DNA of 64,000 nt from Eledone cirrhosa (taxonomy: Eukaryota): NCBI GenBank assembly GCA_964016885.1, contig OZ024747.1, positions 61,876,001 to 61,940,000 of the forward strand, given 5' to 3'. The position numbers and the translations under genes are program-made. A model generated the notes under the pieces. The model was not told the origin of the DNA. It saw only the letters and a program-made list of their open reading frames with translations, and ran no database searches. Of this stretch, positions 3,203 through 50,797 are shown piece by piece (position 1 is the stretch's first letter; each line of letters starts with the position of its first letter).

Positions 3203-3355
3203 CCAGTGGGTGTAACTAGGAGTTACTGCAGGTTCACCCGGGTGAGCACTCGATGTTTAGGTTCACTTCTGTGATGATGTGTAGAGCTATACAGAGTGTA
3301 AAATATAGAAAGGATAAAAAGGACGATTGATTATTCCTTCATTGCATTTATTGAT

Positions 3356-3442
3356 AGGTGACGCGCGTTTCGCCACTGATCAGCTCAAGGTTCGATCTAT
3401 ATCGATCCTACCCGACTCAATAATCGGCAGCTCGACGGACCC
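3356..3442 (-). ncRNA. Variant hammerhead-like RNA (core CCGUCGA, branched stem II)
   Basis: Minus strand reads GGGT-CCGTCGA-GCTGC[internal hairpins]GTGGC-GAAA-CGCGCG-TC-ACCT, followed by AATAAA. A tail runs to the TA tract at about 3203. Confidence 0.55.
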
Positions 3443-13145: not shown

Positions 13146-16477
<3,332 letters not shown>

Positions 16478-16783
16478 TGAAGGCTAAAAAACACTTGTGG
16501 ATAGTGCAGTTTTAAATCAACATATGATATGTTGATTTAAAACTGCACTATCCACAAGTGTTTTTTAGCCTTCATATCATGTTCTCCTGTTTTATCTGAT
16601 GAAAACACAAATATTATTGCATGATGATGTTTGTTTTTGAAATGCGCATAATAAAATATATGGAACTCCTTTAACCATCTTTTGATCTTATATTATGTAT
16701 ACTCCAGTCCTACAAACTGTAGAGTGCTTCTTATCCGATATCTGCATTGCTTTATTGTACTACAATAAAACTCACCTCCTACA
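16478..16783 (+). mobile_element. Solo PLE pseudo-LTR with short inverted 5' arm and intact hammerhead (16590-16656)
   Basis: 16478-16527 is inverted relative to about 16528-16575. Contains TTTTAT-CTGATGA..GAAATGCGCATA-ATAAAA and ends CTCACCTCCTACA plus TA repeat. Confidence 0.9.
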
Positions 16784-42655: not shown

Positions 42656-43035
42656 ATATATTGGTAAACGGAATAGAAAATGCTGACAAATTGTTCACAG
42701 TGAAAAATAGTTTAATTAGGAATAAGTGAGAATAAGTAATAGTATTGGTTAGTATTCAGTTTTGGTTTTTAGTTTTACCGGTTGCGCATTTCTAATGCTT
42801 TTCAAAAATAATTTTGAGATAGAGCGTCCGTGATGTTTGCTCTGATCTGAGCAAACATCACGGACGCTCTATCTCAAAATTATTTTTGAAAAGCATTAGA
42901 AATGCGCAACCGGTAAAACTAAAAACCAAAACTGAATACTAACCAATACTATTACTTATTCTCACTTATTCCTAATTAAACTATTTTTCACTGTGAACAA
43001 TTTGTCAGCATTTTCTATTCCGTTTACCAATATAT
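42656..43035. mobile_element. Near-perfect palindrome with about 185-bp arms in a TA tract
   Basis: 42656-42842 is the reverse complement of 42849-43035 with a 6-nt spacer TGATCT; no mismatches seen by eye. Confidence 0.9.
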
Positions 43036-49847: not shown

Positions 49848-49851
<4 letters not shown>

Positions 49852-50335
49852 AAAGGGGTGAAGAGTAACATGGTTGGCTGTACAATAAGGTCTTTATTTA
49901 AAGTACTGACAATGGTTTCGTCGATCAGGTGAGTCTAGATTTCGCTAATCACTTGAGGTTGCCTCACTCGATCTCCAATACATTATTTACTTCTGGTCAA
50001 TACATCTACGTACTGTGATGTGTTGGCCAGAGGTAAATAATGTATTGGAGATCGAGTGACGCAACTTCAAGCGATTAGCGGAATCTAGACTCACCTGATC
50101 GACGAAACCATTGTCAGTACTTTAAATAAAGCCCCTTATTGTACAGCCAACCATGTTACTCTTCTTTCTTTAACTATTATTACTCCAAGTATAACCTGCA
50201 TAGAAATTACTGCAAACTCGCTGCCTAACTATGGAAACATCTTGTTGAGTCAAACAAAGCCGTACGTTAAAACTATCCTCGATGCAGAGTACTCACAACC
50301 TCTAACTGGATTACCTCTAACGATAACTTGTTATC

Positions 50336-50338
<3 letters not shown>
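49848..50338 (+). mobile_element. Fold-back cassette with hammerhead-like 3' half and non-canonical 5' core
   Basis: Arms 49848-50006 and about 50015-50174 plus a 165-bp tail ending in a TA tract. Contains CGAAACCATTGTC-AGTAC..AATAAA. Confidence 0.75.
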
Positions 50339-50378
<40 letters not shown>

Positions 50379-50381
<3 letters not shown>

Positions 50382-50786
50382 TTAAGAGTTAAACAAGGTT
50401 CAATGAATACATCAAAGAATGAGTTCTACAATAGATTGGAAGCACTCAACAGTAAAAAGGTTTTCCAGAGTTATTAATATTAATTCAAAATATTAACAAA
50501 ATAGATATTCTTGTGATCAATTATATTTTATTATACATATTTCAGAGGTACTGAGTTAAGTTCAACAGTACGTCCTCATCAGATAAAATAAAATGATACA
50601 TGATATACCCTGACATGACTACCTTGATTGAATCTTAACCATCTACCATGTCAGGGTATGTCATGTATCATTTTATTTTATCTGATGAGGACGTACTGTT
50701 GAATTTAACTCAGTACCTCTGAAATATGTATAATAAAATATAATTGATCACAAGAATATCTATTTTGTTAATATTTTGAATTAATA
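50379..50786 (-). mobile_element. Fold-back cassette with two intact hammerheads (minus 50526-50588, plus 50676-50738)
   Basis: TTTTAT-CTGATGA-GGACGTACTG..CAGTACCTCT-GAAA-TATGTA-TA-ATAAAA in both arms. Same family as 21829-22138, in the opposite orientation. Confidence 0.9.
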
Positions 50787-50797
50787 CATATATATAT

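What the first reader, a model, noticed from the sequence alone, without database searches (positions are those of the whole stretch)
50042..50120. Hammerhead-like fold whose 5' catalytic strand is not CUGANGA, preserved in both arms
Seen: GTATT/AGTAC can close a stem I around GGAGATCGAGTGA..TCACCTGATCGAC-GAAA-CCATTG-TC, followed by AATAAA. The GAAA/stem III/GUC half is canonical and identical in the inverted arm, while arm differences fall in the internal region and flanks. Two readings are possible: an unusual 5' core (GGAGAUCGA) with a large stem II, or an ultra-minimal CUGAUCGA-C-GAAA core with no stem II. The 3356 element also has CTGATC a few bases before CGAAAC..GTCA. Inference: a candidate novel self-cleaving or processing motif of PLE-like termini; some PLE clades (Naiad/Chlamys) are reported to lack canonical hammerheads.
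Basis: partly seen in the sequence, partly recalled or inferred. Interest (0 to 1): 0.72.

Follow-up and report, generated by a model that had tools for sequence, protein, structure and literature searches.

The report
Long-armed hammerhead with altered core base
The stretch is the back half of a decayed hammerhead-type RNA motif at the end of a Penelope-like jumping gene; the missing front half lies 30 bases upstream, and hundreds of genomic copies carry an unusually long side arm and a U where hammerheads normally have A9, which is predicted to slow self-cutting (untested).

Summary
The letters are there, but both proposed cores are misreadings. The motif is a type I hammerhead with an 82-nt stem II arm and a palindromic loop III. 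It sits in the pseudo-LTR of a Hydra-clade Penelope-like element (3,426-nt unit; RWK, DKT and CxCX5C motifs; no CCHH), not Naiad/Chlamys. The family core is CUGAUGU (A9U): 463 genome hits with non-A9 (control 2), shared by four subfamilies, while a sister subfamily has canonical CUGAUGA in the same register. The window copy is broken: C3G in the right arm, a truncated core in the left arm, and a damaged loop III. The identity between arms covers three changes away from the family majority, so it is copying, not conservation. The 3356 element is a second, younger family with core CCGUCGA. About 99% of copies run through the predicted cut; cleavage is untested. This scan already noted long-armed Hydra hammerheads on other DNA; I found no report of a fixed A9U in these elements. 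New variant of a known kind.

The parts
49848..50006 (-). Inverted, 5'-truncated pseudo-LTR arm; lacks the stem I 5' strand and C3-U4, has G10.1 changed to A; flanked by (AG)n
50004..50175 (+). Forward pseudo-LTR arm (3' end of the element), joined to the inverted arm by a 3-nt overlap
50010..50014 (+). True stem I, 5' strand (pairs with 50116-50120)
50015..50021 (+). True 5' catalytic strand: GUGAUGU here (C3G, rare); family CUGAUGU (A9U); sister subfamily CUGAUGA
50022..50103 (+).
50104..50115 (+). GAAA, minimal stem III with loop (family palindrome AAUU, here CAUU) and GUC; predicted cut after 50115
50116..50120 (+). Stem I, 3' strand
50125..50130 (+). AATAAA, polyadenylation-like hexamer; similar position in related families; role inferred
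50176..50339 (+). 164-nt extension: the start of the next unit (5' UTR before the ORF) in tandem copies; ends in (TA)n
   Evidence: L031; 24 of 53 ends carry it, 26 of 53 stop at 50175-equivalent in TA repeats
3355..3442 (-). Hammerhead of a second Penelope-like family: stem I 3442-3439, core CCGUCGA 3438-3432 (U4C, A6U), 60-nt arm, GAAA at 3371, predicted cut after 3360

Best explanation
The span is the 3' part of a 111-nt type I hammerhead motif (50010-50120) with an 82-nt stem II arm, in the terminal repeat of a likely Hydra-clade Penelope-like retrotransposon; this copy is broken and would not cut, and the family's fixed U at position 9 likely makes the intact form a slow, dimer-dependent cutter at GUC. 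Shown: the register, the family, the tandem unit with a hammerhead at each end 3,426 nt apart, U9 in four subfamilies, and A9 in a sister subfamily. Inferred: two hammerheads pair through the palindromic stem III loop; U9 can wobble-pair with the general base G12 and so detunes the site; rare cuts would release a unit-length RNA, but most integrated copies were made from RNA that was continuous across the site (uncut or re-joined). My odds for intact U9 copies: slow residual cutting 0.55, effectively dead 0.3, near-normal 0.15.
For: Register: 20 of the 30 best hits, not chosen for the core, carry CTGATGT at a fixed distance upstream; none has CTGATGA; 4 are truncated. A second set: 18 of 30, none A9. 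Full-core pattern with non-A9: 463 hits against 2 control; 97 of 100 listed are this family, all U9. Canonical-core pattern with a 60-90-nt arm: 73 hits against 0, including sister copies with the same 82-nt arm and perfect stem I. A9 in only 3 of 325 hits of the main subfamily pattern. Structure: 95.9% of 1,800 cells paired over 60 copies, slid controls 20-38%; arm z-scores -2.7 to -3.0 for three subfamily majorities; one compensatory G-C/A-U change between subfamilies. Element: two hammerheads flank an ORF in L031, and RWK, DKT, CxCX5C, CxxC, CxH are present with no CCHH, as defined for Hydra in PMC8557442 section 11. U9-G12 pair probability 0.52-0.58 in 3 of 3 U9 copies, 0 in 3 of 3 A9 copies. 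Dimers and low activity are reported for PLE hammerheads in PMC4209133. 660 of 693 hits keep C before the cut and most of the rest are substitutions.
Against: No cleavage or expression data: the one RNA run barely touched the element. Covariation is thin: 3 pairs change on both sides, and 114 of 500 shuffles reach that. The structure was derived from one family member, and I left out a helix that differs between subfamilies. RNAalifold did not recover the fold (-3.27 kcal/mol, a different structure). The free minimum-energy fold of a typical copy is not the active form (-22.6 against -19.5). The window's subfamily has a weaker arm (z -1.3). Pfam and NCBIfam gave no significant family for the ORF pieces; the clade rests on motifs and a by-eye match to Hydra-1_Obim, not on a tree. 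I found no readable measurement of A9U; the predicted slowdown rests on folding and recall. A9 as ancestral is parsimony; the tree is unrooted.
Confidence: 0.8

Rival explanations
1. Same anatomy, but the U9 hammerhead is catalytically dead and dispensable: the element kept multiplying without cleavage and the fold persists through recent descent or as a protein-binding or termination element.
For: About 99% of copies read through the cut. Junctions at the cut (8 rows of 30 examined, 33 total) are not clearly above control offsets (0-5 each; 3 of 30 examined of 91 at +20). A second young family multiplied with two core changes. Naiads proliferate without canonical hammerheads (PMC8557442).
Against: Between subfamily majorities S0 to S3 every other core base, G10.1-C11.1 and the palindromic loop are unchanged, and changes in the scored helices keep pairing. 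This is weak: only 16 substitutions, and my patterns selected for core bases.
Confidence: 0.25
2. U9 is a fully working natural variant, compensated by tertiary contacts from the long stem II arm.
For: U9 persisted through subfamilies whose majorities differ by 2-9%. One of 15 phage pattern hits looks like a complete type I hammerhead with U9 (L146). Perreault et al. propose that peripheral contacts offset core variants (PMC3088659).
Against: The same arm occurs with A9, and arms of other families share no sequence, so no dedicated compensating module is seen. Predicted U9-G12 pairing would occupy the general base. 14 of 15 phage hits were not convincing hammerheads.
Confidence: 0.12
3. One reading: a new core (GGAGAUCGA) or an ultra-minimal CUGAUCGA-C-GAAA core without stem II.
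For: GTATT can pair with AGTAC in 97% of cells. Very short hammerheads linked to these elements are published (Lunse et al. 2017; title seen in reference lists, content recalled).
Confidence: 0.03

Closest known systems
Hammerheads of Hydra-clade Penelope-like elements (Craig et al. 2021, PMC8557442; read: passages, section 11, supplementary Files S1 part and S2, protein passage)
   Same: Type I hammerhead near the 3' end, short stem I, minimal stem III, (TA)n targets, inverted 5'-truncated arm, 3' extension, Hydra protein motifs; an octopus member (Hydra-1_oBim) is listed.
   Different: All 26 Hydra rows of File S2 have CUGANGA and at most about 26 nt between positions 9 and 12 (my count). 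Here the arm is 82 nt and the core is CUGAUGU. The extension is 164 nt against the 30-40 described for Naiads and other PLEs.
Minimal and small-helix-III hammerheads of metazoan PLEs (Cervera and de la Pena 2014, PMC4209133; read: parts 1-2 of 4, results and discussion)
   Same: Position in pseudo-LTRs, palindromic loop III, G10.1-C11.1, predicted dimer, tandem copies about 3 kb apart and inverted pairs.
   Different: Helix II there is 6-8 bp and the named core variant is U3-A8; no A9U and no 60-90-nt arm in the parts read. No extra base between 9 and 10.1 here, unless U9 is that base after loss of A9.
Natural hammerhead core variants (Perreault et al. 2011, PMC3088659; read: passages and part 2 of the main section; figure 5 not seen)
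   Same: Rare core deviations with reduced activity; U4C and an A6 change are described and bear on the 3356 family.
   Different: A9U is not named in the text read; those variants are single sequences, not fixed across retrotransposon subfamilies.
Naiad/Chlamys PLEs (PMC8557442)
   Same: Microsatellite targets, inverted structures; some are marked HHR_half_core with core halves 35-50 nt apart.
   Different: Their endonuclease is N-terminal; here it is C-terminal.

Membership tests
Type I hammerhead ribozyme | Three-way junction with stems I and II and a stem III | tested here: met
   95.9% of cells paired over 60 copies; RNAalifold did not recover it
Type I hammerhead ribozyme | C3 U4 G5 A6 N7 G8 | tested here: met
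   Family: 20 of 30 plus variants; the window copy fails (C3G)
Type I hammerhead ribozyme | A9 | tested here: not met
   U9 in 98 of 100 listed; A9 in 3 of 325; A9 in the sister subfamily (7 of 7 listed). So filed as a variant, not a canonical member
Type I hammerhead ribozyme | G10.1-C11.1, G12 A13 A14, A15.1-U16.1, H17 | tested here: met
   (rows were partly selected on these bases)
Type I hammerhead ribozyme | Match to Rfam hammerhead models | tested here: not met
   No hammerhead hit at E<=10 on an intact copy; the long arm is the likely reason
Type I hammerhead ribozyme | Site-specific self-cleavage | not testable with these tools
   No usable RNA reads; DNA junction test inconclusive
PLE dimeric hammerhead | Palindromic loop III able to pair between two copies | tested here: met
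   Co-folding of two family segments gives the 8-bp intermolecular helix; the window copy does not
Hydra-clade PLE | Single ORF, RT then C-terminal GIY-YIG | tested here: met
   Order of fragments in L031 and L034; read from broken copies
Hydra-clade PLE | RWK, DKT, CxCX5C linker, CxxC and CxH, no CCHH | tested here: met
   against the definition
Hydra-clade PLE | Insertion into (TA)n | tested here: met
   26 of the 29 pseudo-LTR ends without extension run into TA repeats, and most extension ends do too; the window's left end abuts (AG)n
Hydra-clade PLE | Placement in an RT tree with published Hydra proteins | not tested
   Reference proteins could be read but not handed to the tools; by-eye match only
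Naiad/Chlamys PLE | N-terminal endonuclease | tested here: not met

The most novel reading that the evidence does not exclude
Octopus Hydra retrotransposons repeatedly detune their own ribozyme: at least two lineages (A9U; U4C plus A6U) fixed activity-lowering core changes while keeping the fold and went on to make hundreds of copies, one very recently. With natural canonical sisters at hand, this would directly test whether hammerhead cutting is needed, throttled or parasitic in Penelope-like transposition, and whether a 60-90-nt arm can rescue a changed core.
Probability: 0.3. Interest if true: 0.6.

Novelty: new variant of a known kind. Interest (0 to 1): 0.36.

Why it matters
What hammerheads do for Penelope-like elements is an open question: Craig et al. 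call it unclear and allow that they may simply be parasites. This family gives a natural matched pair, the same 82-nt arm with A9 or U9, and a second family with a doubly changed core. It also shows that Rfam and short-spacer descriptors miss these motifs, so absence claims need wider spacers. The window copy itself is an ordinary dead fragment.

Tried and rejected
Rfam on the window gave only microsatellite- and palindrome-driven miRNA hits below their cut-offs among the 150 of 436 listed; nothing relevant on an intact copy. My first clade guess, Neptune (recalled), was dropped after reading the Hydra definition; earlier scan notes prompted that check. Reversion to A9 in subfamily S4 was considered and rejected, because most S4-type copies listed have U9; the A9 rows in my trees are enriched by my own searches. 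RNA evidence: 5 runs listed, 1 RNA with a 0.06 share; laying 3 runs gave contigs only and no usable ends. Cleavage footprint in DNA: junction rows were 3 of 7 (-14), 5 of 15 (-8), 0 of 17 (-4), 1 of 15 (-1), 8 of 30 examined of 33 (cut; one is an internal deletion, two are one locus, one more is borderline), 4 of 16 (+1), 3 of 30 examined of 91 (+20); inconclusive, and the site overlaps a 6-nt palindrome that favours fold-backs. Phage scan for U9 cores: 15 hits, 1 convincing. Pfam and NCBIfam: nothing significant. Protein search: 10 relatives at 33-40% identity, no informative name. The protein atlas was unavailable. Literature: searches found no report of A9U or of such long arms in these elements; one preprint uses CUGAUGU only as a relaxed search word (passage). 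Lunse 2017, Hammann 2012 and a third review were not held; they, figure 5 of Perreault, the figure supplements of Cervera 2014 and bioRxiv supplements may hold an A9U case. Roberts 2023 (PMC9901934; passages, supplements searched) says CUGA-turn mutants have low activity but gave no value for position 9. Also seen without bearing: PMC6765202, PMC11014351, PMC6155905 (passages), bioRxiv 2026.07.22.740005 (part 1 of 5), PMC5785220 (outline, wrong paper).

Full report
Setting. The window lies in a 3.0-Gb animal genome, likely an octopus; this is inferred from size, microsatellite content and likeness of the ORF to a published octopus element, and no call names it. The finding sits in an inverted repeat, 49848-50175, followed by 164 more bases and a TA run. 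The repeat belongs to a family: 2,370 candidates, 51 matches among 40 scored.

The observation. The letters are correct. The 3' half is identical in both arms over a 50-column run (P about 0.009). The run includes three changes from the family majority shared by both arms, while five arm-specific differences lie upstream of it and others downstream. The pair of changes at 50101 and 50109 occurs only in these two arms (2 hits); 100 of 100 listed family hits have the ordinary letters (453 in all). One change destroys the loop III palindrome. The identity is therefore copying, not selection.

The true register. This gives a 111-nt type I hammerhead, 50010-50120, with 82 nt between positions 9 and 12. 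The strongest evidence is homology: a canonical-core pattern with a 60-90-nt spacer finds 73 places (control 0), among them sister copies with CTGATGA, the same 82-nt arm and a 5-bp stem I. Over 60 copies, 95.9% of cells pair. Rows for that alignment were those of my loci that matched a pattern with full length and core-like bases, so invariance of core columns is partly built in.

The core variant. Position 9 is U in 98 of 100 listed hits and A in 3 of 325. A full-core pattern with non-A9 gives 463 hits (control 2); 97 of 100 listed are this family, all U9. Sets not chosen for the core agree: 20 of 30 and 18 of 30 CTGATGT, none with A9. Subfamily majorities S1-S3 differ by 2.3-6.2%, the sister S0 by 8-12%. 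S0 has A9 in 7 of 7 listed; S2 and S3 are U9 by majority, and S1- and S4-type copies are mostly U9 in the genome-wide lists, although my small S1 sample was split 2 A, 2 U, 1 C because I had searched for A9. All 26 published Hydra rows have A9, so U9 is likely derived; the tree is unrooted. Folding predicts a U9-G12 wobble (0.52-0.58 against 0). G12 is the general base (PMC6155905, passage), so slower cutting is predicted. I could read no measurement for A9U.

The window copy. The right arm has C3G, which breaks the C3-G8 pair (importance: PMC9901934, passage), a non-palindromic loop III, and an arm that no longer folds better than shuffles (z +0.97). The left arm starts inside the core. Neither would cut.

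The element. L031 holds two hammerheads in the same direction, 3,426 nt apart, around a broken ORF. Fragments from several copies show RT before the endonuclease, with RWK, DKT, CxCX5C, CxxC and CxH and no CCHH, which are the Hydra features in PMC8557442. Of 53 pseudo-LTR ends, 26 run into TA repeats and 24 carry the 164-nt extension. In L031 that extension leads into the ORF start, so it is the beginning of the next unit. Profile libraries gave nothing and no tree with references was built.

How it likely works. Shown: anatomy and position. From the literature (PMC4209133): such motifs cut weakly and as dimers. Computed: two family segments co-fold through the palindrome. Inferred: in a tandem transcript the two motifs pair and occasionally cut after GUC, releasing a unit-length RNA that may be re-joined. 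The DNA record shows continuity: 660 of 693 hits keep C before the cut, and about 21 of the 30 others examined are substitutions. Defined 3' ends lie 60 and 224 nt past the cut. A possible excess of copies starting at the cut was not clearly above six control offsets. So cutting does not set the ends of most copies.

The 3356 element. It is a separate, younger family (40 best copies at 99-100%) with its own RT and endonuclease (37% identity to the first family over 194 aa). Eleven relatives with CTGATGA align in register with its CCGTCGA, which is found in 90 of 100 listed of 286 hits, none canonical. So its CTGATC also belongs to the 3' side of the arm, and its core has U4C and A6U. U4C and an A6 change are reported to lower activity (PMC3088659). 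Its stem I is only 4 bp, so this assignment is a little less firm.

Novelty. Hammerheads in Hydra elements are known. Arms of 60-92 nt are more than twice the longest published Hydra row (about 26 nt, my count), and this scan has noted such arms on other DNA (unchecked notes). A fixed A9U in these elements was not found in nine paper searches, but key papers were unreadable. One scan note reports U9 in phages; my phage scan gave 1 convincing case of 15. Verdict: new variant of a known kind; interest 0.36.

Noticed in passing
window 50480-50790; also 21931 (-) and 17124 (-): Another inverted pair (cores at 50582 - and 50682 +) with a canonical CUGAUGA core, an arm of about 33 nt and an AUA cut site, 500 nt from the finding.
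   Followed up: no
window 2564, 4760, 12850, 16596 (+): Four copies of a hammerhead family with canonical core and a 36-nt arm.
   Followed up: no
window 5052 (-) and 6476 (+): Inverted pair of compact canonical type I hammerheads with a 14-nt stem II.
   Followed up: no
window 3355-3442 (-): Young family (99% identity, 286 hits) with a doubly changed core CCGUCGA; worth its own study.
   Followed up: partly
L066-L095: At least six unrelated families with canonical cores and arms of 62-92 nt that share no sequence; one family (L066, L078, L087) lacks a good stem I and is probably spurious.
   Followed up: partly
G000 C1:244539702-244539745, C2:290556158-290556201, C1:18774911-18774984: Several inverted pairs pivot within about 30 nt upstream of stem I, near a TACGTA palindrome, as in the window.
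   Followed up: no
window 50027/50098 and 3426/3377: Both families have a C-A mismatch at the sixth pair of stem II; may be chance.
   Followed up: no
window 42796-42895 and 16475-16577: Near-perfect palindromes that score against miRNA models below cut-off; likely fold-back junctions.
   Followed up: no
L146:1-109: A phage contig holds what looks like a complete type I hammerhead with U9.
   Followed up: partly
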